Assembly (NCBI GenBank): GCA_902761035.1
Contig: CACWIW010000003.1
Span: 508 to 64,507, forward strand
From: an uncultured bacterium
GTDB taxonomy: Bacteria > Verrucomicrobiota > Kiritimatiellia > RFP12 > UBA1067
Direction: 5' to 3'
Length of the DNA: 64,000 bases
Each line of letters begins with the position of its first letter. Position 1 is the stretch's first letter. The translations under genes and the position numbers were made by a program. The notes below the pieces were generated by a model. That model was not told the origin of the DNA, ran no database searches, and saw nothing but the letters and a program-made list of their open reading frames with translations. Positions 13,565 through 62,392 of this stretch are shown in pieces.

Positions 13565-13566
13565 AA

Positions 13567-20410: not shown

Positions 20411-20442
20411 TCAAAGTTATCCAAAAAAACGCACACACCCCC

Positions 20443-23271: not shown

Positions 23272-23329
23272 GAAAGGTTTGGCAAGTGCGGGCGGTTGGC
23301 TGAAAGCAAAAAGATTTTGATTTTTTCAT

Positions 23330-23426: not shown

Positions 23427-26400
23427 ATGAAAAAGAGCATTTTATTGGCGTTTTTCGCCTGTTTTTCCGCGTGCGGCGCGCGCGCGGAAGTGGTCACGCC
23501 CGCCATGGCGATGGCCGCTGCCGACGCTTGGGCCGAGCGCAATGCGCAGTTTGATACCGGTAACAATGCCACGAACGTGATCACGGTCTGCGACACCAAT
23601 GCCGCGCAGACAGTCCTGTGGCACCAGGTGTCGATGGCCGGCGGCGGCTGTCTGATCATTGCGCCCGTCACGGAAATCGAACCGATCGTCATGGCGCTTG
23701 AACGCGACCCCGGCGAACTGCCTGCGGCGCATCCGCTGCACGCCATTCTGACTCTCGACATGCGTGGTCGTCTTCGCTTCCTGAACCTCTACCCGGAAAA
23801 CGCACCGTCCTCCGGCGGCAGGCTGCGCCTCGCGGCATCGTCATCGAGTGAGCCCGAGGATGAAGAAAAGGCTGCACACAAGGAGGTGGTGCGCCAGGAA
23901 TGGGCGGAGCAGCAGCAGTCAAAGTGGGAGAAACTCCGCGCACCCCGCAAGGGCGGCAAGGCGCGCCTCGGCGCGGACCTCACGAAAGCGGCGCCCGATA
24001 GCGCGATGAAGGTGAAGATCGTTTTGCCGGGCTTTGAGCCGGGAGGTAAGCTCACGCACTGGAACCAGAGCGGGGGCGTCTACAACATGTACACGCCGGG
24101 GGGCGTGCCGTGCGGCTGCGTGGCCACTGCGGCGGCGGCGATGATGGAGTATTTCCATGTCGGTGAAAAAGCAGGGCAGGAAATCGAAAAGGGAAAGGCG
24201 GACGCGGGTACCACTTACCTGGGAAAAACTTACGCGACTAAAACGAAAGGCGGCAAGTACGACTGGGCAAACGCAAATTCAGAGCTTTACGGCCGTGTGA
24301 CATTCGACGCGGGTGTAGCCGTTGGAATGGGCTGGAACGAGGGCGGATCTGGCGCACAGGAGTCGGCCACAGCCACTGCGTTTAGGGATTATTTCGGTTT
24401 CCAGGAAGCCCGTTACGTGGACAATCCCAGGCCAGACCAGTATGAAAAGCTCATCTACGCCCAATGCCGTTCTGGTGCTCCGGTCGGCATGGGCATCGGT
24501 AAAAGCTCGGGCGGGTCAGGACACTCCGTTGTCGCGGTCGGCTACGGCATAGACGACGACGACGTGGAGCGCGTGCGCGTGTTCCTCGGCTGGGGCGGAT
24601 CGGGCGACGGCTGGTACGCGCTCCCGTACATCAACACCAAGAGCACAATCGCCGGCGACGAAGACCTCTACGACATCCTGGCCGGCATCATCACGATGAT
24701 CGGCTACGAGAACGACAACGTAGTGCCCGTTTTCGGGCGGATGCTACCCTACATCAACCCGCCCATGACGATCAACGGCGTCGAGTACAGCCACGAGAAA
24801 AACGGCGACTACTTCGACAGCATCTTCACCGACGGCTTCTTCGGCGCGCGTGTTTCCGCAGCCGGAACGCAGGCGAACCGCCAGGTGGAACTCTCCTGCG
24901 CGGGCAAGTCGGGCAGCGTGACCATCGGTCCGGCCGCAAGCAAGAGCTCGTCTTACGTCAGTAGCGGCGACGCCATCTGCAAGTGGGTGCCCGATCCGGT
25001 CTTCTTCCCGCTTCTGAATTCCGAGGTGGCGCTGAGCTTCGCGGATGCACGGGAGAAGTGCATCGCGTCGTTTGAGACGACCACGAACAAGCCTGTCTTC
25101 GCCTTCAGCGGAAGCTGGGGCGAACCGGCCACCGACGCCGCATGGAACTACCTGTACTGGCTGGATACGGAAGCGGATGACGCGACGAAGGAGGCCTTCA
25201 CCAACAAGTACATCGTCCTGTGCGTACCCTATAGCATGGGGCTCTCCTCGGAGTCCGACGGAAAACCGTCCATCGGCCTGTTCGACGGACGCGCCATTTC
25301 CGCAGACGAGAACAAGATGTGGTCGTTCTACAACGGGCGCCTCTCGTACTGGACAATCGGCAGCGCGACGTACACGAACGACGTGGACGGCGCGGGCTTC
25401 CCCTACACGAACGTGGTTGAGACGATTGACGGCCCGTATGTTACTTATTCCTACACGAACGTGATTGACGGCGTGAGCGGCGAGGGCATTGACTACGTCA
25501 CGGGCGAACTGATCACGAACGAATTGATCCGCGTGATGGAGGTGGGCCTCACGAACTTCCTCAAGAGGGCTTCCGGCATATCCCTGACGGTGGAGCACAA
25601 CTGTCCCGAGCTACCCGGTCATCCGGATCCAGACTATGGTTTTTACGAAAACGCCTACACGAACGGCGTCACCATCAACGTGACTTCTCCCGAATATGCC
25701 ACGAATTCCGCCCAAACCGTCGAGTTCAGGTGCGTAGGCTGGGCCCTTTCATCGGATCAAGGCCCCGCAGTCGTGACCAATGAAATCACGGTGACGGAAT
25801 TCACCCCAGTCCGCAACGGCGCATACACGGTCACATGGCTGTGGGAGACCAACGCCGTGAAGATTACGCGGGAGATCATAGACGATAATAAGAATGTAGG
25901 CTCCATCACGCCCAATAAGGGAGATAACGATTGGTACAAGATTGGAGATGTCGTCACCTTCACCGCAACTGGGGGAAAGAAGGCGACCACTTCCTACGAT
26001 TTCAATAGTTGGGGGTTGGAAGGATTTCTGGAGGATGACGAGTATTCCGAGTCCGGGAACCTGTTTGTACTCAAGGTGGCGCATCCCGCGAAAATAAGTG
26101 CCACGTTCTCAAAAAGACAATCCAATACTGACACCTTCTACCTGACGGTGACGAACTTCGGAATCAAGGTGGGTGACTCCGTGCCGGAAACGCTCGTCGG
26201 CGGCATTGCGCTTCCATACGAAACGGTCACGAATCTCACTCGTAACATACCTACGGAAGTCATGCTTGCAACGAACGCCTATACGGACGTTGATGGCGAA
26301 GAGCGGACTTGCCTTGGGTGGCGGCTTATTGATGAAGACGGGAATTTCCTCTGCGCCGTGTACAACCTCGGCTTTTATGTTGTTGTGCCGACCAATTTCG

Positions 26401-27191: not shown

Positions 27192-27199
27192 GGTGAAAT

Positions 27200-30100
27200 A
27201 TGATGTTTCGTTCCTCTGTTTTTGCGCTTATTGCGGCCACGATGTCCTTCGCGGCCGAAGGGGCGAACATTACTGTCAGCGCAACGGTTGACTCAGGGAT
27301 TGATTCTGTTGCGCTGAAAGCCGGGTACCAGAGCATGGAGGTTTCCAGCGCTGGTGCCACATGGAATGGATGGAGCATTGGCACGGCCTACACGCCAACG
27401 TTCAAGGGCGTCGCAACGGGGTATGAAGGGCGCTGGGCGGTTGAAAAGAGCGGCCAGGCAACGTTGTCCGGAGGAGAGGAAGACACCATAACCATCCCGA
27501 CGACGTCATATTCGGGCTGTTCGCTGAGGTTCTACAGCCAGGCGAAGCGGTACAAAGTAGCGTTGGACCAGCAGGGCGGCAGCGGCGAAACGACGTCTGT
27601 GACGGCGACCTACGGTGCGGCGATGCCTGCGGCGACGATGCCCACTCGCACGGGCTACACGTTCGGCGGGTACTACACGGGCCCGAACGGCGGCGGCACC
27701 CAGTACTACACGGCCTCAGGCGAGAGCGCGAGGAACTGGGACGCGACCTCGGTCACGAAGCTGTATGCAAAATGGACGGCGGGCGCGTACGCAGTCACGC
27801 TGGACCGGCAGTCTGGCACCGGCGGCTCGTCTGGCGTGACGGCGACCTACGGCTCTGAGATGCCGACGATTACCGTGCCCACGCGGACGGGCTACACGTT
27901 CGGCGGGTACTACACGGGCACGAACGGCGGCGGTACGCAGTATTACACGGCTGCTGGCACAAGCGCGAAGAGCTGGGACGGTACGAGGGACACGACGCTC
28001 TACGCGAAGTGGACGGCCCTTACGTACACGGTCAAGCTGGACCGTCAGTCCGGCACCGGCGGCGACAGATCCGTCACAGCGGCATACGGCAGCGCGATGC
28101 CCACGCTGACCACGCTCCCCGCGCGCACGGGCTACAGGTTCGGCGGGTACTACACGTCGCCGAACGGCGGAGGCACCCAGTACTACAAGGCGGACGGAAC
28201 CAGCGCGAGGAACTGGGACAAGACGAGCGCCACGACGCTCTATGCGTATTGGGCGTCCGCCACGTACACGGTCAAACTGGACCGGCAGTCGGGGAGCGGA
28301 GGCCCGGATACCGTGACTGCTACATACGGTTCTGCGATGCCTGAAGCAAAGATGCCCACTCGCCAGGGCTACACGTTCGGCGGGTACTGGTACTACTCGG
28401 AGGTGAACGGCGACGGGGTGCAGTACTACAAGGCGGACGGGACCAGCGCGAGGAACTGGAACAAGACGGACGACGCGACACTCTACGCGAAGTGGACGGC
28501 GAGTACGTACACGATTACGCTGGACATGCAGGACGGCAGCGGAGGTTCGAGTTCCGTTTGCGTGAAGTACGGTTTGCCGATGCTTACGCCGATCGTGCTG
28601 CCCACGCGCACGGGCTATACGTTCGGCGGGTACTACACGATTCAGGGCGGCGGCGGCAAGCAGTACTACACGGCCTCAGGCGGGAGCGCGAGGAACTGGG
28701 AAGAGACCTCGGTGACGAAGCTGTACGCGAAGTGGACGGCGGATGCGTGCAAGGTCACGCTCGATCAGCAGGGCGGATCTGGCGGCACGAACTACGTCAC
28801 CGTTGCCTACAACTCCACGATGCCGTCGATTGCCGGCGGCTTGCCCACGCGGACGGGCTACGCGTTCGGCGGGTACTACACGGGCGAGAACGGCGGCGGT
28901 ACGCAGTATTACAGGGCGGACGGGACTAGCGCGAGGAAATGGAACGAGACCTCGGATGCCAAACTGTATGCGAAGTGGACGGCGGACAAGGGCCTGGTCA
29001 CGCTAGACCAGCAGTCTGGCTCCGGCGGCGACGTTTCCATTACCGCGACGTACGACTTGGCGCTGCCGACGATTACCGTGCCCACGCGGACGGGCTACAC
29101 GTTCGGCGGGTACTATGCGGAGCAAAACGGCGAAGGGACGCAGTACTACAAGGCGGACGGGACGAGCGCGCGCAAGTGGGATAACACGGATATCAAGACG
29201 CTCTACGCGAAGTGGACGGTCGTCGAGTACACGGTCACGCTCGACCAGCAGGACGGGTCTGGCGGCTCTACGCGCGTGACTGCGAAATACAACGAGGCGC
29301 TCCCGTCCGTCGCCTGCCCTACGCGCAAAGGCTACACGTTCGGCGGGTACTGGACTGACATAAAAGGCGGCGGCAAGCAGTACTATACGCCATCGGGCGA
29401 GAGCGCGAACGACTGGAACGAGACCTCGGATACCAAGCTGTATGCCATGTGGACGGCGGAAACGGTCACGGTCACGCTCGACCAGCAGCCTGGCACCGGC
29501 GGTTCGCCTAGCGTGACGGCGACATACGATTCGGCGTTGCCGAAGATCACCGTGCCCACGCGGACGGGTTACACGTTCGGCGGGTACTATACGGGAGAGA
29601 ACGGCGGCGGGATGCAATATTACGATTCGAACGGGAGAAGCGCGCGCAAATGGGATAATACGGGCATCACGACGCTCTACGCGAAGTGGACGGTCATCAA
29701 GTACACGCTGACGTTCGACAAACAGTCGGGCACTGGCGGCACGTCCAGCGAAACGACGACATACGGTTCGGAGCTGCCGACGATTACCGTGCCCACGCGG
29801 ACGGGCTTTACCTTCGGCGGATACTGGACGGCGCCGGACGGCTGCGGCACGCAGTACTACAAGGATGATGGCACAGGCGCGAGGAAATGGGACGAGACGG
29901 ACAACACGACGCTCTACGCGAAGTGGACGGTCATCACGTACACGCTGACGTTCGACCGGCAGGATGGAACGGGCGGTACGTTTAGCGTGACGACGACCTA
30001 CGGCTCGGCAATGCCCGCAGCGACGATGCCCACGCGGACGGGCTATACTTTCGGCGGGTACTATACGGAACCGAACGGCCGAGGGACGCAGTATTACGAC

Positions 30101-35428: not shown

Positions 35429-35450
35429 TCGCACGGAGGAAAATTTCCTA

Positions 35451-35480
35451 TTGCCCTAACGGCAGAAATTGTGCTAAACT
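35451..35480 (+). promoter_or_regulatory. possible internal promoter: TTGCCC (35451-35456), 18-bp spacer, extended -10 TGcTAAACT (35472-35480)
   Basis: Read directly from the sequence in the 94-bp gap before the lipoprotein gene. Confidence 0.3.
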
Positions 35481-35522
35481 AAAAAACGCTTCCGAAAGGT
35501 TGGCCTTAAAGAGGCAGGATAG

Positions 35523-36032: not shown

Positions 36033-36058
36033 TTTACCTAGAAGGAAGGCGGTTCAAC

Positions 36059-57000: not shown

Positions 57001-60000
57001 GGACGCCCGCGCCTCCTACGGCGACAACTTCGCTCAGGTCCCGTATGACCCGTATGACGAATACGGCTTCTGGAACAGCCTGGTGGCGGCCAGTGCCATC
57101 AATAGCACTGCGACGAACTTCGTTGCCGGAGTCGCGAACGCGGAGCTTGTGGCGGCACTCGACGTGTACACGAACGACTGGAACTACGCGAACGGCGTGA
57201 TGGCTTACGCGCAGACGACGGCTCACGTGGCGACGAACGGAACGGACAAGTTCGTGGTGGTGATCGCGGGCGCGGACGACCCGGACGGCGTCGCGGAGGG
57301 CGCGGTGAAGACGGTTCTCAGGACGGTGACGCTGCCGAACGGCGAGCTGGTCGCGTGGGGCGAGACGGCCGATGTCGACGTGGTGGGCCTGCCGATCGGC
57401 GAGGAGCCGGTGACGCTCATCCACAGGGCGGTCTACCACTTCTACGGCTTCGAGGCGGACACGGCCCGCGGCTGCATCAACGACGGCGCGGCGTCTGCTG
57501 CCCCGGCGGCGGCCGACGGCGAGGACGGCGAGGAGACGGCTGCGGCGGCCGCAACCACTGCGGCGGGCACGGGCCACACGGCACCGTTCACGCACGCGTG
57601 GCGCTACTTCACGAAGGAGATCGTGGGCTACGCGGATCCCGTCGAGGTGGTGTACGACTTCGAGGATGGCACGGGCGACGGCCTCGCGGACGGCTGGCAG
57701 CTGTATGTCGGCGGCAGTGACAGGCATGCCTACCAGTACCGCTACGACCCGGCGGACGACTACTACTTCTACAATAACCTCGCGGTGCAGGATCCGGAAT
57801 TCGCGGCTTCGCTGCCTCCGTACGACAATACGTTCGCCATCACGAACGGCATCGCGAACGCGACGGTGGAAGCGCAGAAGGCGTTCTGGGACTGGGCGCC
57901 GGAGGACGACTACATGGCATACGTCCAGACCAACGTGCTGATTTCGGTGGTCACGAACGCCGGCGGCGTGGCCTCGATCTACGCGATCGACCCGGGCACG
58001 AACACGCTCTACGAGACGTTCTACGTGGGCAACGAGCTCTTCGTGGGCGCGGTCTGCACGAACGAATACGCCTACAATGCGATGGAGAACGGCGACTTCA
58101 TGACGATGGTCACGAACGCGACGGTCATCCACTCCGCAGTCTACGACTGGTACGGATTCGACCCGACGACGGCCAAGCCTTCGTACTGGTGGCCCGAGTC
58201 CATTGCCTACCTGGCGGAATCCAACTCGAACTACACCGTCGGCGCGAACAGCGTTCCGTTCACGCGTAGGCTGAAGTACATCACGCAGACGATGTACCTG
58301 CCGATGGTGGGCGCGGAGGACGACTACTTCCTCACGACATCGTGGACGGCCGATCCCTCGACGTGGTGGACTGACACCAACGGCAACGACATGCCGGACG
58401 GCTGGGAGCTGTACGTGAAGTACTCCGCCTCGAGCGATCCCAGCAAGCCGGACGACGATTACAGGGAGGACTTCACCGACGGCAGCGACCCGAACACCGA
58501 CGACACGGACGGCGACGGAATCCCTGACGACGTCGAGCAGTTCTTCGGCGTAACCGATCCGACGGTGCCAGACGGCAACCTTGCGCTTGAGAACGACGTG
58601 ATGGCGTTTGCCACCGTAAACGCCACGGTCGTGACCGTGCAGAATACTGCGGAAGGCAGCCTGCCGGTGAAGTACCTCCTCGCAGAGGAAATGGCGGGCA
58701 ACACCGTGGTTGCGCCCAAGGTCGGAGACTACGCTGATTCGCTTGCGCTGCGCGCGACGTACGAATATCTCGTGTCGACCGACGCCAACGACGGCTCCGT
58801 GACGAACCGCTGCGGCGTGGGCACGAACGTGACGCTCACGGCCGCTGCCGGAACAGCCAACCGCATCGTGGCAGTGGCAACCGAGCCCGTGGTGCTCGTC
58901 CACGCGCAGGTGTACGACTACTTCGGCTTCAACAAGGACACCGCGAACCCGACGGCGGTCACGAAGGAGGGCGCGAACTATGTCTATGGCGCGAACACCA
59001 AGCCGTTCACGGTGCTGGACAAGTACCTCGTCGTCCGCTACCTCGAGGCATACGGCCTTGCCAACGCGGCGGCCGACTGGAAGGCGCTCGCGCTTGCGCC
59101 GGCTTCGTCCGACAACGACGCCGACGGCGTACCGGACGGCTGGGAACTGTACACGATGTTCGGAACCGAGGGCGTGACGGCCACGCTTGCCGCCGCCAAG
59201 ATCAGCCCGTACAACTACGCCGACGCCCGTGCGGTCGCTCCGGCAGGTGACATCACCCTGCTTGAGAAGTGGAACGGCGGCGCTCCCGCGTACGACCCGT
59301 GGTCGAAGGATTCCAACGACAACGGCGTGGACGATGTCGATGAGATCAGGTACGTTCTCGATGAACCATACGGTGACGCTGACAACGACCAGCTGCCGAA
59401 CTTCACGGAGTTCCTGATCGCGAGCGGCTTCTCGCAGTACTCGGAATTCGCCGGCGTGTCAGACATCTCCGCGACGAACACCTACTCGCTGACGAACCTC
59501 ATACCGGACTATTTCCGCCGTATAAACAACAAGCTCTACCTCGGCGAAATGTTCACCGACCACGACTTCATGGAAGACCTCTGGGAAGACCTGTTCGACG
59601 TGAAGAAGGTCACGCGCGGACTCTACGACCCGTGGCGCGATTCGGACAGCGACGGCTGGAGCAACTACGCCGAGTGCCGCGCTGGCACCAATCCCGAGTT
59701 CGAAGCCAATACATACGGCGTAAAGGGTATAGTTGTAAAGAACTATCCTATACCGACAATCCACGCCAAGGTCGTGATGGGCCCGGGCGAGGGCATGCTG
59801 AACGGCACGATAGTGGTGCAGGCCTTCTCTGACACGAGCAAGCTGACCGGTCTGCCCGACGCGACATGGACGGTTCCCGTGGGAACGTCGTCCGGCGATT
59901 CCACAACTGGTTCGTCCTCGTCCGATTCCAGCGAGAATTCTGCAAAGACCAAATACCTTGGCGCAAACCCGAACGGCGAGGTTTCCTTCACCCTGTCTCC

Positions 60001-62392
60001 CGGATTCGTCAAGCCCGGAAGCATCTCGATGTCGTTCCTTGATCCGGACTTTGAGGTCATCGACACCAACGGCGTCGTTACGGCGCTTGGCGACATCAAC
60101 ACCGCCGAATGGCAGGCACTTGCCGAGGATCGTCAAGTTACAGGTACGTCTAGTGGCAAGATTCTGGTCAGCACGCCGACGAATTCACTGGAGATCGGCA
60201 CAGTTGACTACCACACGGGTCTGGTGACGGTTGACTACACGAAGTTGCCGACATCGTTGCCTGTTGTCGCCGAAGGCAATGATGCGACGAATTCCGTCCT
60301 GCTGCATCTCGCCAACAGCCATGTGAGGGTTTCCTGGGAAGCGGAGGTTGCAGGCGGTAATCCGTGGATGACGCTGCACCTTACGGATAGTGATGACACA
60401 ACCTCCGAGCAGGCTACCTACGGCCACGTGCGCGAAGGCAAGAACACGTTCGTTGTGTTCGTTGCAGGCGAAGGCGGCAAGTGGGCACCTGGTAATGCAT
60501 ACGGAGTTGTGAAAGACGTTGACGTTGGCTGGTCGGAAGCGGAATTCACGGTTGAGCTGACCAAGACGACTCCGATCATGGCCCGCTTCAACCTCAGCGC
60601 GGCAATAAGCGCCACTTCTGGCAGCAGCGGCGGAGAGGGCTCAACTTCCGCTCTCACGGACCGTGACACCGTCAATAACGGCAGGGGGTATGCTCCGAAC
60701 GAAGAGTCCAAGTATCCCGGAACGAACATGCCCTCCAATGTGTCGCTTACGCGTGTGAGGGTAATTCGAAACTGGATTAACCGTAGCGGTTCTAGAGGAT
60801 CGACGAGCTATAGCGCAGTTCTGTTTGATCAGAAGATTGACCTCTCTGTGCATCCGACTTTGACGGAGGCTGACCTCTTGACCGATGGCGTATATGATCT
60901 TGACTGGGGTACGCTTCTCCCCGCTTTCGGTGGTGGTGCCTCTGGTTTGACAAATGCAACGTATCGCATTGTGATAGGCGACGACGAACTTGGCGATTAT
61001 GAGGATCGCGCTAACAATCTGCCGGTGCTCTTCTCCAACCTGTTTGAGGCGAAGCCGCGGCAGACGCTGACGGTACCGGATCCAAAGCTTGCTGAGATTG
61101 AGTATGCAGGCCGTCCGACGTTCCGCTGGTCGCACACGAACACGATTGACAAGGCCTATCCGGCATTCCAGCTCCGAATCTATAAGTCCGACAAGACGAC
61201 AATCGTCTATGACTCCGGCGTGCAGCGTGCACCTGCCCGCGACTCGGATGGCATGTACGAGTGGACGGCACCTGTTTACGCAGGAATGGTCACGTCGAGC
61301 AACCATGTCTTCGAAGTCACGAACAACTACTACTGGGCGGTGTCAATGCTCGACGCGAAATTCACGACTTTCAACTACAACGAAACAAAGACGCCGTTCC
61401 GCCTTGGCACGAGTGGCAACCTGCTTGACGGCAAGGACTATGGTGCCATTGCCGTGCGCGTGAAGTACTTCGGCCCGCTCATTAGGCTTTCTGCGGTTCC
61501 AACGACCAAGAAGAACCTCGTGCGCGTCCAGGCGTTCACGTCGCCGGACTTCTCCGGCCTGCCCGTGGCTGAGACGTACGTCACCGATGTTTCGAAGGTT
61601 GCATATACATCCGTTATCGTCACTAACGCTGTCATTCGCGGCGTGGCGTGCGGCGGCACCTACTACGTGCGCGCCTACATCGACACCGACGCCGATGGCG
61701 TGAAGTCCGATTGGGAGTCGTGGGGCTACAACTGCTTCGTGCTTGATCCAGCGGTCACGTCCGTCTGGAGGCCGAAGCCGGTTACAGTGTCCTATCAGGA
61801 CATGATGCCCGATGCCACAGTGTTCATTGAAGATGCGGATACTGATAACGACGGATTCCCGGATGCTTGGGAGTGGAACGAGAATGGAAACCTTTCCGAC
61901 CAGGGTCCGATTAGCGGCAATACGTTCTTCGCGACGGTCAACCCGACGTTGACCTCCACGTTAAACGCCTACTCGCTGATCGCGGGCGGTATTGAAGGGG
62001 CGACGGCCGCGACGGGCAACATGCGGAACAACAGGCTGCAGGCGTCAATCAGCGCAAGTGCGCAGATTCTTGCCGACGCATCCGAGAACACTGCGGTGCA
62101 GATCAAGGCGTTCTCGCTTGAAGACGGCCTTGAGCTGGAGGTCGTGAACACCACGTCCGGCGGCGATTCCTCAAGCATGATCGTGTTCTCCAAGCAGGCG
62201 ACGGTCCAGTTGTCGCTCGCGTGCTCCGCGACGCCCGACTTCGCCGACGCGGTGGAGGTGCCGATCAAGTCGATCACGATCTACGCGAACCAGAAGACGA
62301 CTGATGGCATCGCCGTCACGGCCGAGGAGCTCGCCGAGGCTCGTGCCAAGGCACCAGAGGCCCGCTTCTTCAAGGCAATCATCACGAAGTGA
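36059..62392 (+). CDS. giant secreted multidomain protein, 8777 aa (PKD-like, TSP type-3-like Ca-binding repeats, LamG, four large super-modules)
   Basis: A single frame stays open for 26.3 kb. The signal peptide MNMKRKIGICATLLAALLFAVPQSAQA starts at the ATG at 36059; the upstream ATG at 36029 overlaps the previous stop and adds no signal. About three dozen D-x-D-x-D-G-x-x-D-x-x-E motifs were counted by eye. The sequence is amino-acid-like in this frame only. Confidence 0.9.
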   Translation: MNMKRKIGICATLLAALLFAVPQSAQASGKIRRVDVYDPSGLHTFPNHDGHDRPLTVGDTIYIRFRLANLEWRRTENDPSYTNPWAFTYTGPLTGNVSIDELNRIAANKPCLGLWVSGSLREAECVNWPMGVASDWLTADAQDPNDRGSLNGRHYTDLIFKYTVQAGDIALPLQLANESGNGPSTGAEGYYLKRGKQDTLWKIQATTNSADTAYTVTADFKFGEANLALDPDFSGDGTSSWLDAQDSENRDLDLYIAGAYIQAIDFDKTYFNEGDGIWRSIAQGSTTADPGTPMVEIAGGAAEPMKLYLWTTNDVAEIVVGGQVYEVVERDFRDGTHKVGTLSITAGNENVPFSIKATGAVGGTADIFLSATPTNIYNDSNLLITNFIKRTIKVGEPLPPSMTVSVNGKNRDTVEANPDFSKALVAVSVTLSEPWTNNYELSIPIKVTVKEDPSLNATNYVRMSSESEFFNEAWEDVLTVPAGTPASGSTTPTYSLWMYANRGSVETENTGLLVEVDTNRLDAAARSIFIGKFTPATVLVKRSTPEITKDVIVTADANADAQVTVNVADAWGELRPPCTYTVYWSNSGNDSPAYYTPISDLAATASGDITFNVKYSQKGDYESLFYVVNADGKQSNKRTAYVHVNAAKVVEATLLNRGKFAETNPFDEPQPVVTLSFGDEGFRMPDDSDYGYIFFVPKSDNASNLVTCAEMDRDDEHDWKWGVQVYRGDMEVGPIEMTLLDGTAKGLKMEYDIIVRSDPDFDLGYQVTSWSSKGFYFTVTNVAPNVSAVKMGAETLYESGGQMGNVSLGVTKSFYAETDDPSDIDFYADEPNYANQATVFQTHWDIKLGTSTLFTTNVFGPPTVPFNYTFRQAGTYTVEVSMRDKDSIDRTRYPDRFGPKFTFTVIVDSKPAVSLAPHFGTTAFNENSGGAGENALSRIDVNLSTLPTEQIAVQLTIERAGADNGNYPLPELSTTTLSFGGESPNTTNAWFTLRNLDGTDRTLDPGFVIRAAVTNTTVNGDSVPWKEVYRSTELPITIANLAPEVTRPASNTVTRAINEPFTINYTFKDFGSYDMYNNGVKGETLYWTITGEPSVEQTITPNANTYRGTFTTQFSSAGTKTIQLQVVDKDGGESEVATWYYRVDAAKQLIVNPCGPGTSGGGNFATTWTGQRNVGVGRVWATGGTIKPFSNFSHIYTYAPSIASGTAFAHGYSAGAEDSGSLTPGTDYAVTDRAHGGRHPATGNYYKADATKDSFFYAWLLTTGGGAAGTTTSLLKLSPEYGADSVAMQRVDLPEEEKDATYYPDTVLDAIFSKEYLVSDNLGDINGDQIPDVYAVSPIWDGGKRLYEVAGFSAESGGDVSFRAFSYNDDGDYLPSKSFQGGMPSTSDGWSTLGEPFTAYREIRGQHEGLNHRTEHDGLNHYVRGEWVSVPHFSEAETNAVAYWNAKRNGSPTPDLVTWTEFKAAATNEATYATEFAEWSSKFETAVRDPNSWIPEKRTDPTLWDTDGDSLPDGYEYYFWYRAAVGTINDGKWVQLTGEKFTLNNITKGDPLSPEDIMKAFDPTVMASGDIATRDTDNDGLTDLEEFAMGTNPIHWDSDGDGMNDLWEVMRGLNPLKVPSNPEMNPDGDFMASYHTPKSYAIVTLNNGKVYALEQNGTNLKTFEAESFDGDGGKTKGGTNVLASVVFGVEDVSNVTAIAVFHYGNNSAVCVPKKRGNPNAQEKPLDPDEVSLADTEVVSVQLNQDLMLIHDQVYNQLEFHPYTAWHINSNGDVSARWGAAVNTVAYNCVDEYRLMKYRYETGIATRDNNRPLADIFLDLTTNPNKPFSEAAYTVSWAGTDGGGSEQVAAVAEIPTYSSTNHGADTDEDGIPDGWELYVGANPNDALDASGDGDHDGLSLRNEYAGSDSCNAYGFATNGNNVGTIYQYHPGHAKGWYNKFTPTDPKDGDTDRDGLSDGSEGSAFIYGDPTDDGSTCIRGGGLNPCGVDTDFDLLPDGWERQYQGTVVPAGRGFEGINPDIVQIIKRNDNLGSNAVIRAYISFGMDGTYNDAFKVPTANQVDPRTGTRRNLDFDNDGLLNFQEYLVQVLRHLRYDDTETPLMGSYLPDGIAGTRKYIGFLPMHVWDGATFFKTARAAGFTGLSARQGDGFKFRELGYFAPPEKTWDLTMSGSRLLKPPRGLSDIATADDENRMGASRYVGTDPRDWDTDRDGMDDYYELFHGLNPLLGSKDIISEAYNTTLSNDKLFSARCTAWSNWEEKELVYDAMRFPWAMGVAEADADGDGLRNTDEALLVNMPNPPNYHTDPTPLWMTDSSSKISVTAQYYCRDPYASGEGDDIPALSTFPWFTYVDGRDPGSVNKYMFTFEENEGYDTDHDWIPDEQELTHAVTSATSPLHGSDPDRRQAMYFPGEESVVQSYSGNLHRRIGENYAMLRAFSVEAWVRPEDLSREQTIVTRVCNYPSSTLSNATHQVRANFRIKMEAGGRVWGQYDSDDAVPNGSPKGFGTTSVEGITLESNKWSHVALTFDGSALIIYVNGIPVGNSPASLIPANGLIVTLQEVNPNGSNYGVDGYDTYPSALLIGADAKELGALDIGPDSAWTNYCAHYKGWVDEVRVWDGARTEAQIKADYTKRYTLKDVSELRDMVYREWLEGGTHNPNDGRPNLSPELVFHYGFQQLPSEVEADYVTSEPSGFTERVLDNVKWNGRSVDIRCGWWNAVPIASTVYGNRAIVPWVRDTCAMLPMMDGSTYDSRYWSELIGGVTFPVEVGVAQFLFPNVANPYPYWNYMAETFFREQRLNWMRGSIGGDTTNVVFDVYNRIRFGTRTLFVGGSDLLPLGGAFAKRCPDFWDGNGSTDAWTATVDDTDNDGLPDWWEAHAVAEYGADAATLIAATMVNYKLPSGAVVEMSAWEAYQIDLALGIMPGEPPTYDPAYESLADNNNDGLPDWWQKLYDVYDLDPDDDPDNDGLSNYYEWLISWGDEYGFGIANGFPLLNPRRIRTGRSQEVTDYFLRNDTSAEYAGYYFGEITSDHDFMEDWWEKTYKQDYASIGVYDPWDDKDEDGWSNFAECRNALWGGTYTADAISRYFDGEQMSLCYPSPALGVRVTYNGAQNVVGKPLVVRTHTGFQKREDATFVVVGASADVQENTKFIGGYYTGATTLRGFIDPGAVIPAEGHFKQAWLVTGKTYRWDVPNYYTYPRVGSYEEFMADVLRFGRANVILLTSELDWKNLGTTRAIDSLGKHGVIDAVDGSKQIGTIDFSTGEYSLDMAAIATLNENDLEGCVFKVDYQTRVSRDWPQSFWLSAPKEGRVREGKNTIEAFIDLNEDGNYTPGEPFGVAQNVDVGWYRTSETLIELTDTISVVPRMNIASLANDRTVVGGVSGGVALGSGEEGNSEGSSGQSSGNNANGLTKQVRIVRRAINGVDAPNRILMNKSFVLNDRAYIHEGDVLSPSRLDLDWQWLATDAAEMEIDTIRTVEYAIEEVRKLSDGATTNIQLATFLNHYNPSRSVPTAVRPVDGEPVHSATPTFRWAVGDETMTAFELQVRDADGVVVYDSGIQRLPGRTATFVDTAHYAFNPLLSVDTCTSTNGSPVFADGTNWQWRVALFNAKYNTVDEAAWSQWADFRTDTVNDGIATGYGSCTAAVRYYGPGTIDDPGLVVVDAFTTPDFSGQPLARARLSSIDKLSSIDDVTTTNTCFRGIEPGTVYLRAFFDRNNNGKWDRWEPWGYANRRDELASVSDIFSPRGMTVTGDRAENVPSITIYIEDTDVNRNKIVDVLEDEALFGNTVSEVDADGDGMGEVEENDIGTDPSVWDSDGDGMPDGWEFRFAATDPLMADASKTAEGDVMAYAEENWMLVTDASDAMYLVNPTNTDVRVGDVLPLARLVSTYDYAGKYGVGTNLTDTVTTFRVSKVEDVTAVFVHAQVYDRYGYSPLTAVPAENAVHTKPFTSLDKYLLIRYFESLGFCNEAEVNANRIWADFSLKPNDPDNDRDGVYDGWELYVMFGTNEMGVVNLTGGTIVSPWNSEDRYTRFDGSTGGLALIEDYDDGYMPTDPWHSTTEALGLVGIDDVDAFRFRLKSIESQLADDDNDGLSNWAEYLAYKLTGKYFDVKNPCSVTPNRLDYFYQFEQGGVMKYIGECIDIDGFGLIADHDFMEDYNEDLYDVDLLNRYSYDPFLDADGDGWSNYAEARAGTASDRTVTLSIEDSKYPEYPIPVIKADFLYRGSESLGGGVILQAYRAGSAKSDAEWKSATPGLDGVKTKILGTWRNGALRFMLSPSNVRPGSVNIQAKDLAFVYTDSIYNWPSWYNDIWYAGTAAEAEWFDIVSDRQRDDDRLRGDLIYNKTILTSSSSDSNAAVTNNEIRIVGWVDYLTGQCEIDFTALDGYFYRNIMAGANFRAMRYNLENSYFRVRHNSEFVTDSVKQTFYFSECANGMLLEGKYNFMAFIDANSDGTYTIGEPMGVVRDVNVGWDRVPDLLIELTDDTVAGARFTVPAQTNGATRVRVLRTAINGVPMERKRTVYVKTLDLTKGRTFSEVDFIKDGEYDFDWANLAADAQALLGIEASNILNADYAVYLDSGDPTPIYTFSRSFDAMNLAPAVSWASISNHNVVATAQPTLKWKASAGYPAFALQIAKDEDFTDVIYSVTNLMPAATADGCQFKPDVYAGYGLEDGSNYFWRVQQVNAKFTTNIWSSAASFTMKVDSSNADTGYGKLRAEVRYFGPATDDLTNVVVGVYESADFVSMPVARMRLSGDGKVTDLTNDLTQAFSVVATSGVSVVTLDGIKPGTYYLMAFIDSNGNSVRDPWETWGYANKVGTDGRDIYTPVSVTVKSAKSATPSAYIVMEDTDVNQNWIPDCIDTVDLEGWKPSSEVKPDEPTADVDTDGDGLTDAEEDDYGTDPRNPDTDGDGLPDGFEVQAGTDPLFADSDLAGANDVMAYKLDTLTIMVATNAEGSVTNRFVVNSRFEDGYPQMSNTVYTVFEVNGQLFVGAPTNRAAATDGYMYGYMTTNVVVMHSAVYDFYGYDPTTAKPGTATVDDEGNATTALGANTVPFSAYLKYVTQQYYLKEFGDATNDFALAINKLDSNANYLPDGYELYVRYATWHDPSVSYSDADARSSYGDNAAGMAYDPYEEYLFFNRLENKVGVVKFTNFEACRYNIIDGDLLKDEDNDGLSNYHEFLASKAPYNVMLDVMNAMSDGATLDYFRTAGGTYLGLALNGGEFIENEARTKMGIDILDMAGTRYRPSDGWDYWSIARYNYANADTNGLATPLPTPEPPVTMTLRWRNPHWTQYQAQGVTIKAYQVNPAYPEQGEDEMIAWAPSANNFEPDTTFGGGVAVLRADKLAWRLSSDPDPDTGVFNLKPGKVRFEVTLDDTDFAGSAETVIGWAGVDVTVTLTDRANGLSYLPEIQRNDSASHVAIIRTKVNGQAVTPRGVWYKVYSNNIDRRTVMPTEFMDDEFIGIDKFLAEADETMLGTTLDKVESVTYEVLTGTPPFTTANLNGDVAEEAGDEAEAASRNQTFTMHYSLERDKAEIFSFEDGVEGTATLTFGPSTNSASWKFWVKVENTFNGNCVTNIYGGDRGFLIPTFTAEGRVTIDPAEYGIALTEGTNVVCVALGNDKFGAPAEDDEAAWSAPATFYTNKAADFPGSITLDVRHPLIAPADLKPANLVVAAYELPDLAKPVVIGAKTMVVTNSTVITGLRPRAKYYVAAWYVSDKDARLGTAAALERKPWDTWGYAADIGSDKVAAFTPVAVAADSTEPVVVYLQDTDWNDNIVIDREEIFSAADNDYTGSYFGAAILDFDRDGLPDAWEELFGNDPTLADDAGVAADGDVMAYFEEQRTAVIVTNSTGEATTYLLPHDALVAPKVGDEFSATDTLSLFTSYEYGNLLGEGTNVTLDAGRVVSISNATVAIVHWQVYDRFGFDPKTCVKDDDAVNTKEFTALDKYLLLKHFAALGFNDGADTLANWEAWTLKPGVVDADGDGIADGWELYTMFGPNDKTTANMKLSPWNYADRNNKLSPDGLLSSVEEYDGGNSPTDPYSDDTDLDGITDAVAYDYQIKSAESQLADYDNDGLSNWAEYLASLLTGVDFDVRNPYTFGNRLDYFYRYNGMYVGESVDADGLGLIADHDFMEDYVEDVIGYNRYVYDASIDKDGNGWDNWSEVRARYNEATWVVVGEETNTYTRTFNSFTPEAKAQWQMWYDNEFFPKVLGGTRTAWLVSARYYNANGEEKFTYTGDVAGYPINDSSCEVIWYELDDKKSYGGKPLPNVNVRIYGVEGGASNITVAAYSDKNLRSPDATFEVEGKAVDGVVAASFVGDGMKQGLNTFVVTAGAKTGFAKASVGFDRVDVEIVLRDGAIAFTVEPQTDATTRVRVLRTAINGTTVAPRAVYAKTLDLRSGKTFTEADLVKDGEFDFDQTYLEADAIAAGIVASATEIRSVGYAVYLDWGDAQPIYTFTRTFDAQNLAPAASGASAQHGYVVASAQPALTWKASAGYPAFALQIATENTFADDKIVYATTNVMPGVAADGCTFKPEIYVGDGLDDATTYFWRVAQLNSKFTTNKWSEVAEFTTAVNVSNADTGYGRVAVDLRYFGPSAETLDKVVVGVYESADFTTEPVARMHLVGAGGVSALARDPAAGKEFTEVTTNVVIDGIAPGDYYVMAFIDANGNHKRDAWETWGYVNKIGTDAADLYTPVSLKVVSTKAGAPSAFLVMEDTDVNQNWTPDCIEPAANFDGWTPAQQIEPDQPTAEDIDSDGDGLTDAEEDDYGTDPRNPDTDGDGLPDGWEVKNGTDPLFADADLAGLNDVMAYKVDALKVMFTTNDVGEVTGRYVVNSRFEDGYEQQSNTVYTVFEVGGQLYVGAPTNRVDVTNAYAYAFMTNVVVMHSAVYDFYGYDPTTAKPGTVQAVAGEDGAATEQTVQGVNTVPFTAYLKYVTQMFYLKEFGDATNDFALAINKLDSNANYLPDGYELYVRYAVWHDPALTYDDADARASYGDNFAQVPYDPYDEYGFWNSLVAASAINSTATNFVAGVANAELVAALDVYTNDWNYANGVMAYAQTTAHVATNGTDKFVVVIAGADDPDGVAEGAVKTVLRTVTLPNGELVAWGETADVDVVGLPIGEEPVTLIHRAVYHFYGFEADTARGCINDGAASAAPAAADGEDGEETAAAAATTAAGTGHTAPFTHAWRYFTKEIVGYADPVEVVYDFEDGTGDGLADGWQLYVGGSDRHAYQYRYDPADDYYFYNNLAVQDPEFAASLPPYDNTFAITNGIANATVEAQKAFWDWAPEDDYMAYVQTNVLISVVTNAGGVASIYAIDPGTNTLYETFYVGNELFVGAVCTNEYAYNAMENGDFMTMVTNATVIHSAVYDWYGFDPTTAKPSYWWPESIAYLAESNSNYTVGANSVPFTRRLKYITQTMYLPMVGAEDDYFLTTSWTADPSTWWTDTNGNDMPDGWELYVKYSASSDPSKPDDDYREDFTDGSDPNTDDTDGDGIPDDVEQFFGVTDPTVPDGNLALENDVMAFATVNATVVTVQNTAEGSLPVKYLLAEEMAGNTVVAPKVGDYADSLALRATYEYLVSTDANDGSVTNRCGVGTNVTLTAAAGTANRIVAVATEPVVLVHAQVYDYFGFNKDTANPTAVTKEGANYVYGANTKPFTVLDKYLVVRYLEAYGLANAAADWKALALAPASSDNDADGVPDGWELYTMFGTEGVTATLAAAKISPYNYADARAVAPAGDITLLEKWNGGAPAYDPWSKDSNDNGVDDVDEIRYVLDEPYGDADNDQLPNFTEFLIASGFSQYSEFAGVSDISATNTYSLTNLIPDYFRRINNKLYLGEMFTDHDFMEDLWEDLFDVKKVTRGLYDPWRDSDSDGWSNYAECRAGTNPEFEANTYGVKGIVVKNYPIPTIHAKVVMGPGEGMLNGTIVVQAFSDTSKLTGLPDATWTVPVGTSSGDSTTGSSSSDSSENSAKTKYLGANPNGEVSFTLSPGFVKPGSISMSFLDPDFEVIDTNGVVTALGDINTAEWQALAEDRQVTGTSSGKILVSTPTNSLEIGTVDYHTGLVTVDYTKLPTSLPVVAEGNDATNSVLLHLANSHVRVSWEAEVAGGNPWMTLHLTDSDDTTSEQATYGHVREGKNTFVVFVAGEGGKWAPGNAYGVVKDVDVGWSEAEFTVELTKTTPIMARFNLSAAISATSGSSGGEGSTSALTDRDTVNNGRGYAPNEESKYPGTNMPSNVSLTRVRVIRNWINRSGSRGSTSYSAVLFDQKIDLSVHPTLTEADLLTDGVYDLDWGTLLPAFGGGASGLTNATYRIVIGDDELGDYEDRANNLPVLFSNLFEAKPRQTLTVPDPKLAEIEYAGRPTFRWSHTNTIDKAYPAFQLRIYKSDKTTIVYDSGVQRAPARDSDGMYEWTAPVYAGMVTSSNHVFEVTNNYYWAVSMLDAKFTTFNYNETKTPFRLGTSGNLLDGKDYGAIAVRVKYFGPLIRLSAVPTTKKNLVRVQAFTSPDFSGLPVAETYVTDVSKVAYTSVIVTNAVIRGVACGGTYYVRAYIDTDADGVKSDWESWGYNCFVLDPAVTSVWRPKPVTVSYQDMMPDATVFIEDADTDNDGFPDAWEWNENGNLSDQGPISGNTFFATVNPTLTSTLNAYSLIAGGIEGATAATGNMRNNRLQASISASAQILADASENTAVQIKAFSLEDGLELEVVNTTSGGDSSSMIVFSKQATVQLSLACSATPDFADAVEVPIKSITIYANQKTTDGIAVTAEELAEARAKAPEARFFKAIITK
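38390..39500 (+). other. two PKD/Ig-like domains inside the giant ORF (about 38390-38790 and 39165-39500)
   Basis: The first reads VTNVAPNV...AGTYTVEVSMRDKDS...FTFTVIVDSKP. The second reads IANLAPEV...AGTKTIQLQVVDKDGGES...YYRVDA. Both resemble the GxYTVTLxVxDxxG pattern. Confidence 0.45.
40572..40905 (+). other. first cluster of thrombospondin type-3-like Ca-binding repeats
   Basis: It contains DTDGDSLPDGYE, DTDNDGLTDLEEFAMGTNP and DSDGDGMNDLWEVMRGLNP. Confidence 0.6.
43268..43939 (+). other. LamG / concanavalin-A-like lectin domain (Laminin_G_3-type)
   Basis: It reads MYFPGEESVVQS...FSVEAWVRPEDLSREQTIVTRV...WSHVALTFDGSALIIYVNGIPVG...YKGWVDEVRVWDGARTEAQIKADY. Confidence 0.65.
45137..61855 (+). 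repeat. four paralogous super-modules of the giant ORF: 45137-47356, 48494-50593, 54422-56200, 59558-61855
   Basis: Each module runs through the same order of landmarks: DHDFMED(W/Y/L).E; D.DGDGWSN(F/Y)AE; G(K/L)NTF..F.D.N.DG; DV.VGW...L.ELTD; RVRVLRTAING; PT(F/L)(R/K)W...YPAF.LQI; YG...V.RYFGP; F(T/S).P(D)F; W(E).WGYAN; EDTDVN. Confidence 0.85.

What the first reader, a model, noticed from the sequence alone, without database searches (positions are those of the whole stretch)
23427..62392. 39-kb four-gene locus: C10 peptidase, 2742-aa InlB-repeat protein, small lipoprotein, 8777-aa megaprotein
The four co-directional genes are separated by gaps of 8, 94 and 26 nt. All four have Sec-type signal peptides, and one has a lipobox. 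I see no type I ABC/MFP/TolC genes, no autotransporter barrel or two-partner secretion partner, and no type IX C-terminal domain. I also see no LPXTG or PEP-CTERM sorting signal and no sortase in or next to the locus. How about 11,500 residues of extracellular protein cross and attach to the envelope is therefore unexplained. The organisation suggests a dedicated module. A papain-like protease with its own inhibitor propeptide could mature or shed the giant proteins. A repeat-lectin-like protein, a lipoprotein that could serve as anchor or chaperone, and a Ca-binding megaprotein complete the set. I do not recognise this as a described system.
Basis: partly seen in the sequence, partly recalled or inferred. 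Interest (0 to 1): 0.8.

Follow-up and report, generated by a model that had tools for sequence, protein, structure and literature searches.

The report
Protease–lipoprotein–giant surface protein cassette, Kiritimatiellia
This is a real, conserved gene cassette of uncultured gut and rumen Kiritimatiellia that pairs a C10 cysteine protease and a small helical lipoprotein of a previously undescribed family with a giant calcium-binding surface protein; it is undescribed, but it is built from familiar parts and needs no new secretion route.

Summary
They are a 1254-aa C10 peptidase, a 2742-aa protein with 24 Flg_new repeats, a 169-aa lipoprotein and an 8777-aa protein with TSP3 and LamG domains. 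No known secretion or anchoring signal was detected by HMM.

Synteny shows the unit is real but differently shaped. The conserved core is three genes: C10, lipoprotein and giant. It sits after rpoZ-smpB in many Kiritimatiellia metagenome contigs, down to about 27-38% identity. The Flg_new gene is an insertion found only in the window's subclade. The giant is about 4000 aa in more distant lineages and has grown here by copies of a ~1000-aa super-repeat.

The C10 catalytic Cys and His are conserved in at least 97% of 120 homologues. The lipoprotein is a lipid-anchored proline-rich tether plus a helical hairpin, with no known relative. It always lies 2-37 nt before the giant.

The C10, the giant and some Flg_new orthologues end in an RF[FY]K strand. 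In the C10 this is the last strand of an Ig-like domain. It is not a T9SS-type domain.

Most likely this is a Sec-exported surface fibre or adhesin with a lipoprotein partner and a processing protease. Outer-membrane export probably uses general type II machinery encoded elsewhere. Function is inferred, not shown.

The parts
20501..21243 (+). rpoZ (20501-20776) and smpB (20776-21243). These are the conserved upstream neighbours of the cassette in most related loci.
   Evidence: Translation closely matches the L005 smpB. rpoZ coordinates are. The same neighbours occur in L005, L019-L023 and L027.
21236..23041 (+). Amidohydrolase gene. It lies between smpB and the C10 gene in the window's subclade.
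   Evidence: Pfam Amidohydro_3 and Amidohydro_1. Same position in L004-L007 and L017.
23329..23357 (+). Best sigma-70-like promoter match of the region (TTTGCA-17-TATAAT), about 70 nt before the C10 start codon.
   Evidence: 10 of 12 matches. The number of sites in the region equals the chance expectation, so this is weak evidence.
23427..27191 (+). Gene 1: secreted C10 cysteine peptidase, 1254 aa.
- Signal peptide: aa 1-21.
- Conserved pro-region: aa 22-199 (23490-24023).
- Catalytic domain: aa ~200-410 (24024-24656), with Cys231 (24117-24119) and His366 (24522-24524).
- Extension of about 730 aa rich in beta structure.
- C-terminal Ig-like domain: aa 1143-1254 (26853-27188), whose last strand is KRFYKVV (RFYK at 27132-27143).
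   Evidence: Pfam PF01640. Interpain A alignment covers GCVATA and GH. Cys and His are conserved in at least 97% of 120 homologues. The AF2 model of the C-terminal domain has pLDDT 90.
27200..35428 (+). Gene 2: accessory Flg_new (Listeria-Bacteroides repeat) protein, 2742 aa. It has a Sec signal peptide, 24 repeats and a Pro-rich linker at aa ~2306-2379. Its C-terminus (…VPVKIE) lacks the RFFK motif.
   Evidence: The gene is absent in L009, L019, L021, L023 and L028. Orthologues in L004, L006 and L017 end in NRFFKV/L.
35523..36032 (+). Gene 3: small lipoprotein, 169 aa.
- Lipobox LVGC: aa 22-25 (35586-35597).
- Disordered Pro-rich tether: aa 26-50.
- Helical part: aa 55-160 (35685-36002), with the antiparallel hairpin formed by H62-99 and H122-160 and a conserved tip (LPEGATDxQV…NPRKYPAWREL).
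- Net basic charge.
   Evidence: 157 homologues and no Pfam or NCBIfam family. AF2 gives pLDDT above 90 over the hairpin. Foldseek finds no hit with E<0.001.
36059..62392 (+). Gene 4: giant secreted protein, 8777 aa.
- Signal peptide: aa 1-27 (AQA|SGK).
- Unique N-terminal ~3000 aa conserved among orthologues (36140-45058).
- About five diverged copies of a ~1000-aa super-repeat (45059-61873).
- Unique C-terminal ~170 aa (61874-62389) ending …PEARFFKAIITK (RFFK at 62363-62374).
- 26 TSP3-type Ca-binding motifs and one LamG domain.
   Evidence: There are no PDB sequence relatives.

Best explanation
This is a vertically inherited, operon-like cell-envelope cassette of gut and rumen Kiritimatiellia (PVC group, Gram-negative envelope). 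Its core is three genes.

1. **A Sec-exported C10 (SpeB/interpain-type) cysteine protease.** It is made as a long precursor with an N-terminal pro-region and a C-terminal Ig-like domain.
2. **A small lipoprotein.** It consists of a flexible proline-rich tether and a basic helical hairpin.
3. **A giant acidic multi-domain protein.** It carries many thrombospondin-type-3 calcium sites and a LamG domain, and most likely forms a long calcium-stiffened surface fibre or adhesin.

**Proposed mechanism (inferred).** All proteins cross the inner membrane through Sec. The giant reaches the surface through general type II (pseudopilin-type) machinery encoded elsewhere. The lipoprotein gene is always 2-37 nt upstream of the giant gene and is probably translationally coupled to it. 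I propose that the lipoprotein docks or tethers the giant at a membrane. The C10 protease would process, trim or release the large proteins.

In the window's subclade a Flg_new-repeat protein has been inserted as an accessory surface component. The giant has more than doubled in length there through super-repeat duplication.

**Shown versus inferred.** Shown: gene structures, families, predicted catalytic competence, the lipobox, the predicted folds of gene 3 and of the C10 C-terminal domain, synteny and taxonomic range. Inferred: surface location, the export route, the tether role and the protease's substrates.
For: **Synteny of C10, lipoprotein and giant.**
- Found in independent contigs at 27-96% identity: L003-L007, L009-L017, L019-L024, L028.
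- The giants are collinear over about 3200 aa at 42-81% identity, and at 27% identity in the most distant pair.

**Lipoprotein-giant coupling.**
- The gap between them is 2-37 nt in all loci, whereas insertions (Flg_new, the L018 genes) fall between the C10 and the lipoprotein.
- In L026 the small protein and the giant are replaced together while the C10 stays.

**Protein features.**
- Catalytic Cys231 and His366 are conserved.
- The lipobox is invariant.
- The hairpin model is confident.
- The giant has 26 Ca-binding motifs and no TM segment.

**Origin and export.**
- Local GC is like the flanks, and the position after rpoZ-smpB is fixed, which argues for a native rather than mobile locus.
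- Kiritimatiella has an outer membrane, Sec and a T2SS (PMC5148204).
- A pseudopilin-like gene sits in the equivalent slot in L026.
Against: - There are no expression, localisation or activity data.
- No secretion genes lie in the 64-kb window or in the flanks of related loci, so the export route is assumed.
- L027 has the C10 and Flg_new with no lipoprotein and no giant. The protease is therefore not strictly tied to the giant.
- Conserved gene order within one bacterial class can partly reflect shared descent.
- The promoter and terminator scans are at chance level.
- The hairpin fold gives no functional clue.
Confidence: 0.45

Rival explanations
1. The small lipoprotein is a dedicated inhibitor of the C10 protease. 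It would be a functional analogue of Spi, the staphostatins and the Bacteroides Bfi proteins, guarding the envelope until the zymogen is exported. It would not be a partner of the giant.
For: - C10 and staphopain genes are typically co-transcribed with an adjacent small inhibitor gene, and some Bfi inhibitors are lipoproteins (PMC2873492).
- In the ancestral three-gene form the lipoprotein gene lies directly after the C10 gene, with an 83-123 nt gap.
Against: - The predicted fold is a helical hairpin, not a staphostatin-type beta barrel.
- There is no profile similarity to the C10 pro-region, as a Spi-like origin would predict (hhalign probability 1.8%).
- Insertions separate it from the C10 but never from the giant.
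- In L026 it is swapped out together with the giant while the C10 remains.
- In L027 the C10 exists without it.
Confidence: 0.18
2. The near-C-terminal RF[FY]K strand or domain is a sorting tag of a PVC-specific surface-attachment pathway. The co-encoded C10 peptidase would be its processing enzyme, working like PorU or a sortase, with the lipoprotein as acceptor or anchor.
For: - The motif occurs once in the 8777 residues of the giant, 9 residues from the end. It occurs once in the 1254 residues of the C10, 19 residues from the end.
- It is kept in 117 of 120 C10 homologues, in all giant C-terminal fragments and in Flg_new orthologues.
- A profile of the C10 C-terminal domain finds 94 proteins among 1.84 billion, matched almost always at the C-terminus. 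These include Flg_new proteins and others.
- Like PorU, the protease carries the tag itself.
Against: - The window's own Flg_new protein lacks the motif.
- The giant's C-terminal region and the C10 C-terminal domain show no profile homology.
- In the model, RFYKVV is simply the last strand of a generic Ig-like sandwich, with no significant PDB match and no T9SS CTD among the hits.
- An LRR protein outside the cassette carries the same ending, so the tag is not specific to this protease's operon.
- No T9SS or sortase-type HMM hit.
Confidence: 0.08
3. The genes are neighbours only through shared descent, with conserved gene order next to rpoZ-smpB. They act independently: a nutritional exoprotease, an unrelated lipoprotein and an unrelated adhesin.
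For: - The upstream housekeeping neighbours are conserved too, so part of the synteny is plain vertical inheritance.
- All relatives belong to one class.
- L027 keeps the C10 without the giant.
Against: - The trio also occurs with different upstream genes: Lyase_1 in L009 and MFS in L028.
- The lipoprotein-giant spacing of 2-37 nt is maintained at 27-38% identity.
- The C-terminal motif is shared.
- A related C10 is again paired with a small exported protein and a large protein in L026.
Confidence: 0.15

Closest known systems
Lap-type adhesin control (LapA giant adhesin, LapG cysteine protease, LapD) of Pseudomonas and the Dvh variant of Desulfovibrio (PMC13090378)
   Same: A giant calcium-binding repeat adhesin is encoded with a dedicated exported cysteine protease. 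The protease's plausible role is to process or release the adhesin from the envelope.
   Different: - LapA has no Sec signal. It is a T1SS substrate with RTX repeats and is held in a TolC-like pore.
- LapG belongs to the C93/BTLCP family, not C10.
- A c-di-GMP receptor is part of that system.
- Here there is a Sec signal, no RTX motif, no ABC/MFP/TolC or LapD gene nearby, and a small lipoprotein instead.
C10 peptidases with adjacent small inhibitor genes (SpeB-Spi; Bacteroides fragilis Bfp-Bfi, PMC2873492) and large C10 proteases such as interpain A
   Same: - The catalytic domain is the same, with the GCVATA Cys and the GH His.
- The proteins are exported as precursors.
- A small lipoprotein gene lies next to the protease gene.
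   Different: - The lipoprotein is a helical hairpin unrelated to staphostatins or to the pro-region.
- It is linked more tightly to the giant than to the protease.
- The protease has an ~850-aa C-terminal extension that is not a T9SS domain.
Type IX secretion cargo with Ig-like C-terminal domains and the PorU peptidase
   Same: An Ig-like C-terminal domain ends in a basic-aromatic-hydrophobic strand. It is shared by a protease and by repeat or adhesin proteins, and the protease carries it too.
   Different: - No hit to T9SS CTD models.
- No T9SS CTD among the Foldseek matches.
- By general knowledge, T9SS is confined to the Bacteroidota/FCB group.
- The giant's C-terminal region is not homologous to the C10 domain.
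Giant proteins of Omnitrophota encoded next to type II/IV-like secretion loci (bioRxiv 10.1101/2023.11.21.568195)
   Same: These are giant multi-domain proteins carrying signal peptides, with peptidase domains nearby. They are inferred to act in attachment, with T2SS-like export proposed.
   Different: - There the secretion genes are adjacent and the peptidase domains (C39, S8) are part of the giant.
- Here the protease is a separate C10 gene, no secretion genes are adjacent, and a small lipoprotein is the constant partner.
Myxococcus TSP3-repeat envelope proteins (CglD, MtsD)
   Same: They share clusters of bacterial TSP3 calcium-binding repeats (NCBIfam partial hits).
   Different: Scores are far below the family cut-offs (59-63 bits against 400-800). 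Similarity is limited to the repeats, and the architecture and context differ.

Membership tests
MEROPS/Pfam C10 peptidase (SpeB, interpain A) | Match to the Peptidase_C10 model above the curated cut-off | tested here: met
   PF01640 scores 87.7 bits against a cut-off of 26, covering the full model 1-194. PDB best hit is interpain A at 1.8e-10.
MEROPS/Pfam C10 peptidase (SpeB, interpain A) | Catalytic Cys-His dyad present and conserved | tested here: met
   Cys231 in GCVATA aligns with the interpain catalytic Cys, and His366 in SGHSVV aligns with AGHAFV. Both are conserved in at least 97% of 120 homologues.
MEROPS/Pfam C10 peptidase (SpeB, interpain A) | N-terminal inhibitory prodomain (I69-like) | tested here: inconclusive
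   A conserved ~180-aa region precedes the catalytic domain. It has no Pfam hit at E<=1 and no PDB hit with a profile at E<=10.
Flg_new / Listeria-Bacteroides repeat proteins | Tandem Flg_new (TIGR02543) repeats | tested here: met
   24 repeats, 575.6 bits. TIGR02543 scores 124 bits.
Bacterial lipoprotein (Lgt/LspA substrate) | Signal peptide ending in a lipobox [LVI][ASTVI][GAS]C | tested here: met
   LVGC at aa 22-25. G24 and C25 are invariant in 59 homologues. Acylation itself is not testable here.
T1SS RTX adhesins (LapA, SiiE type) | No Sec signal; C-terminal RTX nonapeptides and secretion signal; adjacent ABC, MFP and TolC genes | tested here: not met
   A Sec-type signal peptide is present. 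The giant has zero GGxGxD motifs. No such genes occur in the window or in related loci.
Type V secretion (autotransporter or two-partner) | C-terminal beta-barrel or N-terminal TPS domain, with a TpsB partner | tested here: not met
   No Pfam or NCBIfam hit of that kind in any of the four proteins.
T9SS cargo | C-terminal domain matching T9SS CTD models or fold | tested here: not met
   No NCBIfam or Pfam CTD hit at E<=0.1. The modelled C-terminal domain has no significant PDB match and no T9SS CTD in the top 50.
Sortase/exosortase-type C-terminal sorting signals (LPXTG, PEP-CTERM and relatives) | C-terminal motif followed by a TM helix and a basic tail | tested here: not met
   No hydrophobic 19-mer outside the N-terminal signal peptides. 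No NCBIfam hit.
Lap system | LapG-type (C93/BTLCP) protease and LapD receptor next to the adhesin | tested here: not met
   The protease is C10. No LapD-like gene occurs in the window or related loci.
C10/staphopain inhibitors (Spi, staphostatin, Bfi) | Homology to the protease pro-region (Spi) or a beta-barrel staphostatin fold | tested here: not met
   hhalign of the gene 3 family against the pro-region gives probability 1.8%. The AF2 model is an all-helical hairpin. Inhibitory activity cannot be tested here.

The most novel reading that the evidence does not exclude
The RF[FY]K-terminated C-terminal strand or domain marks cargo of an undescribed protein-sorting pathway in Kiritimatiellia and other PVC bacteria. 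The co-encoded C10 peptidase would act as a dedicated C-terminal processing or attachment enzyme, analogous to PorU or sortase. The helical-hairpin lipoprotein would be the membrane anchor that receives or holds the giant protein.
Probability: 0.08. Interest if true: 0.8.

Novelty: new variant of a known kind. Interest (0 to 1): 0.45.

Why it matters
Kiritimatiellia are common, mostly uncultured anaerobes of rumen and gut. Almost nothing is known about their cell surface.

This cassette is a conserved, native locus that spends up to 39 kb on three or four exported proteins. It is therefore likely to shape how these cells attach to particles, mucus or other cells.

It defines a new small lipoprotein family: 157 members in the large database, with no Pfam, NCBIfam or PDB relative. 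It also defines a distinct ~1100-1300-aa C10 protease subfamily.

The cassette offers a tractable entry point, in three ways:
- an enzymatically testable protease;
- a small soluble hairpin;
- defined termini of a giant protein.

With these, one can ask how PVC bacteria display very large proteins and whether a cysteine protease controls that display. If the shared C-terminal strand proved to be a sorting tag, it would add a new pathway to the list of bacterial surface-sorting systems.

Tried and rejected
**Searches for known signals and relatives**
- Known secretion or anchor signals: Pfam and NCBIfam scans of all four proteins found nothing.
- PDB sequence relatives of the giant: none.
- Homology between the proteins of the locus: BLAST found no significant cross hits.
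- Rfam scan of the window: no hits.

**Tests on individual parts**
- Internal repeats of the giant: self-BLAST returned nothing because contained HSPs are culled. Cutting the protein into 250-aa pieces solved this.
- Common origin of the giant's C-terminal region and the C10 C-terminal domain: hhalign gave probability 2.5%. Only the short motif is shared.
- Lipoprotein derived from the C10 pro-region (Spi-like): hhalign gave 1.8%.
- Pro-region as an I69 inhibitor domain: no Pfam or PDB support.
- Fold of the lipoprotein: only generic helical hairpins, best E 0.33.
- Fold of the C10 C-terminal domain: generic Ig-like matches, best E 0.023.

**Scans with limited value**
- The GTDB genome scan with the lipoprotein alignment found only 4 loci, because the pattern was taken from the signal peptide. 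It underestimates the distribution; protein-based look-ups gave the wider picture.
- Promoter and terminator scans were at chance level.
- Literature searches found no description of this cassette.

**Readings considered and dropped**
- A mobile or horizontally acquired island. GC matches the flanks and the chromosomal position is fixed.
- A toxin or contact-dependent inhibition locus. There are no toxin or immunity domains.
Full report
**1.

The window contains four co-directional ORFs: 23427-27191 (1254 aa), 27200-35428 (2742 aa), 35523-36032 (169 aa) and 36059-62392 (8777 aa). The gaps are 8, 94 and 26 nt, and each start codon has a Shine-Dalgarno-like sequence before it.

Pfam assigns the following:
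- Peptidase_C10 to gene 1 (87.7 bits, cut-off 26);
- 24 Flg_new repeats to gene 2 (575 bits);
- nothing to gene 3;
- TSP3_bac and Laminin_G_3 to gene 4.

A regular-expression count finds 26 DxDxDGxxDxxE calcium-binding motifs spread over residues 1575-8594 of gene 4. There are none in the other proteins.

All four N-termini look like Sec signals. Only gene 3 has a conserved lipobox (LVGC). The Cys in the signal peptide of gene 1 is not conserved in orthologues, so gene 1 is not a lipoprotein.

Nothing in Pfam or NCBIfam points to a known export or anchoring signal. This covers T1SS, type V, T9SS C-terminal domains, PEP-CTERM and LPXTG. There is no hydrophobic segment apart from the signal peptides, and no RTX nonapeptide in the giant.

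The rest of the window is housekeeping: SMC, TrpRS, ScpA/B, LysM proteins, HemB, HydG/HydF, an FPP synthase, LysRS, rpoZ, smpB, an amidohydrolase and acetate kinase. GC content of the locus matches the flanks.

**2. Whose locus it is, and how it is conserved**

Gene 3 has 157 homologues in the large protein database. The few that carry names come from Kiritimatiellae MAGs, and the samples are largely rumen and gut metagenomes.

*Four-gene form.* Contigs carrying these homologues show the same order, amidohydrolase-C10-Flg_new-lipoprotein-giant. This holds in close relatives and in lineages with only 46-56% identity in gene 3.

*Three-gene form.* More distant lineages were reached through gene 3 (38% identity) or through C10 homologues (33-39% identity). 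They keep C10-lipoprotein-giant but have no Flg_new gene: L009/L010, L019/L020, L021/L022, L023/L024 and L028.

*Position.* In most of these the cassette follows rpoZ-smpB, as it does in the window. L009 and L028 have other upstream genes.

*The giants are true orthologues.* They are collinear with gene 4 over the first ~3200 residues at 42-81% identity. Identity is 27-28% over the first 600-800 residues in the most distant case.

*Length of the giant.* Lengths recorded across the loci are 3948-4001 aa in the three-gene lineages, then 4101, 5156, 6403 and 8539 aa, and 8777 aa here. The extra length in the window is a ~1000-aa multi-domain super-repeat. It is present in about five diverged copies between residues ~3000 and 8605, with the youngest pair 59-79% identical.

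So the conserved unit is a three-gene core. The Flg_new gene (916-2743 aa) is a lineage-specific insertion between the protease and the lipoprotein.

*Three informative variants.*
- L018 has three extra ORFs between Flg_new and the lipoprotein, two of them with an HU-type DNA-binding domain.
- L026 has a related C10 followed by a 211-aa pseudopilin-like (T2SSG) protein and an unrelated 2556-aa protein.
- L027 has C10 and Flg_new but neither lipoprotein nor giant.

**3. The parts**

*Protease.*
- The best solved relative is interpain A. The alignment covers the catalytic Cys (GCVATA) and His.
- Cys231 and His366 are conserved in at least 97% of 120 homologues, together with the GWGGxGDxWYALP block. 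The enzyme should be active.
- A conserved ~180-residue region lies where C10 zymogens have their prodomain. It matches neither Pfam I69 nor any PDB sequence, even as a profile.
- About 850 residues follow the catalytic domain, and no family matches them.

*Lipoprotein.*
- The AlphaFold model, built from 59 sequences, has pLDDT above 90 over residues ~60-150. It shows a disordered proline-rich tether after the lipidated Cys and a long antiparallel helical hairpin (H62-99, H122-160) with a short helix at the tip.
- The most conserved residues cluster at the tip: LPEGATDxQV…NPRKYPAWREL.
- The protein is basic (K+R 18.9%, D+E 13.0%), while the giant is acidic.
- Foldseek finds only generic hairpins, best E 0.33.

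*Giant.* It has no PDB sequence relatives, only weak PKD/Ig-like hints, one LamG domain, and TSP3 clusters between presumably beta-rich modules.

**4.

*Where the motif occurs.*
- Gene 1 ends …AKRFYKVVTGATKSPLTEISP and gene 4 ends …PEARFFKAIITK.
- The pattern [RK][FY][FY][KR] occurs exactly once in each protein, in both cases next to the C-terminus.
- It is kept in 117 of 120 C10 homologues and in every recovered C-terminal fragment of the giants.
- The Flg_new orthologues of L004, L006 and L017 carry NRFFKV/L.
- The window's own Flg_new protein ends differently (…VPVKIE).

*How widespread the domain is.* A profile of the last ~90 residues of the C10 family was searched against 1.84 billion representative proteins. 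It finds only 94 matches, nearly all at the C-terminus. Most are C10 homologues, but some are Flg_new-repeat proteins and other proteins. An LRR protein near the cassette in L019 has the same ending.

*What the domain is.* The AlphaFold model of the domain is confident (pLDDT 90, pTM 0.83). It is a seven-stranded beta sandwich in which RFYKVV is the last strand, followed by a short tail. Foldseek gives only generic Ig-like matches, best E 0.023, with no T9SS C-terminal domain among them.

*Limit of the similarity.* The giant's C-terminal region is not detectably homologous to this domain (hhalign probability 2.5%).

*Reading.* The motif is most simply the terminal strand of Ig-like end domains that are common on exported proteins of these bacteria. 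A role as a sorting tag is neither shown nor excluded.

**5. How it most likely works**

[quoted passage not shown] Export by Sec plus general type II-like machinery encoded elsewhere is the default reading. The pseudopilin-like gene in the equivalent slot of L026 is a weak pointer in the same direction. Giant proteins of the PVC-related Omnitrophota are likewise found next to T2SS-like loci (bioRxiv 10.1101/2023.11.21.568195).

*The lipoprotein belongs with the giant rather than with the protease.*
- Its gene is always 2-37 nt before the giant's gene.
- All insertions fall on its other side.
- In L026 the small protein and the giant are exchanged together.

I therefore favour a tether, docking or escort role for the hairpin.

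*The inhibitor rival.* The precedent is C10 genes co-transcribed with small inhibitor genes, some of them lipoproteins, in Bacteroides fragilis (PMC2873492). Against it stand the all-helical fold and the lack of similarity to the pro-region, and the genetics above.

*The protease.* Its constant presence and predicted activity fit processing or release of the large proteins, in the manner of LapG acting on LapA. It belongs to a different family, however, and L027 shows it can also occur without the giant.

All of these functional steps are inferences.

**6. Comparison with known systems, and novelty**

The locus works most like the following:
- protease-controlled giant adhesin systems (Lap);
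- C10 protease-plus-small-partner operons;
- more loosely, T9SS cargo sets that share an Ig-like C-terminal domain.

It fails the defining features of each of these families (see the membership table). I found no description of this cassette in the literature searched.

It is a new variant built from known kinds of parts. Its gene 3 protein belongs to a lipoprotein family with no Pfam, NCBIfam or PDB relative, and its protease to a distinct long C10 subfamily.

It is of moderate interest. It is a solid lead into the unknown cell surface of a widespread gut lineage, but nothing in the evidence requires a new secretion mechanism.

Noticed in passing
window 19900-20450: The intergenic region between a rubrerythrin-like ORF (minus strand) and rpoZ is packed with repeats. 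There is a perfect 55-nt direct repeat 344 nt apart, a 44-nt direct repeat 100 nt apart, and 31-36-nt inverted repeats. No Rfam family matches. It may be a small repeat element or a regulatory region.
   Followed up: partly
L026:8528-21294: A C10 homologue (36% identical, lacking the RFYK ending) is followed by a 211-aa T2SSG pseudopilin-like protein and an unrelated 2556-aa secreted protein. The 'small protein + giant' slot seems exchangeable as a pair.
   Followed up: partly
L027:1136-11605: One lineage has rpoZ-smpB-C10-Flg_new (1759 aa) followed by a 76-aa ORF with a hydrophobic segment and then housekeeping genes. It has no lipoprotein and no giant.
   Followed up: partly
L018:1117-4374: Three ORFs are inserted between the Flg_new gene and the lipoprotein gene. 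Two carry an HU-type DNA-binding domain (PF14848). This may be a small mobile insertion.
   Followed up: partly
L019:6813-8849 (also L020:728-2728): An LRR_5 protein upstream of rpoZ ends …ATNRFFKLGLEN. The RF[FY]K ending therefore also occurs on exported proteins outside the cassette.
   Followed up: no
window 45059-61873 (gene 4, aa ~3000-8605): About five diverged copies of a ~1000-aa multi-domain super-repeat account for the size difference between ~4000-aa orthologues and this 8777-aa protein. A 96%-identical relative of the lipoprotein sits next to an 8539-aa giant, so copy number or length varies even among close strains.
   Followed up: partly
window 35523-36032 and homologues: Most members of the lipoprotein family end in Lys or Arg (…EK, …AK, …KK, …RR). 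This is reminiscent of the C-terminal Lys through which Braun's lipoprotein is linked to peptidoglycan. It is not strictly conserved, since some end in KN or KQ.
   Followed up: no
window 34115-34336 (gene 2, aa 2306-2379): A Pro-rich low-complexity linker gives a spurious 'Cornifin' Pfam hit. The C-terminal module of gene 2 (…KGSFKAYA…GYGAATV…VPVKIE) differs from the RFFK-ended module of Flg_new orthologues in sister lineages, which implies a swap of C-terminal modules.
   Followed up: no
window 13402-16282: The [FeFe]-hydrogenase maturases are present: a HydG-like radical SAM protein and HydF. Together with acetate kinase at 62482-63699, they mark the organism as a fermentative anaerobe.
   Followed up: no
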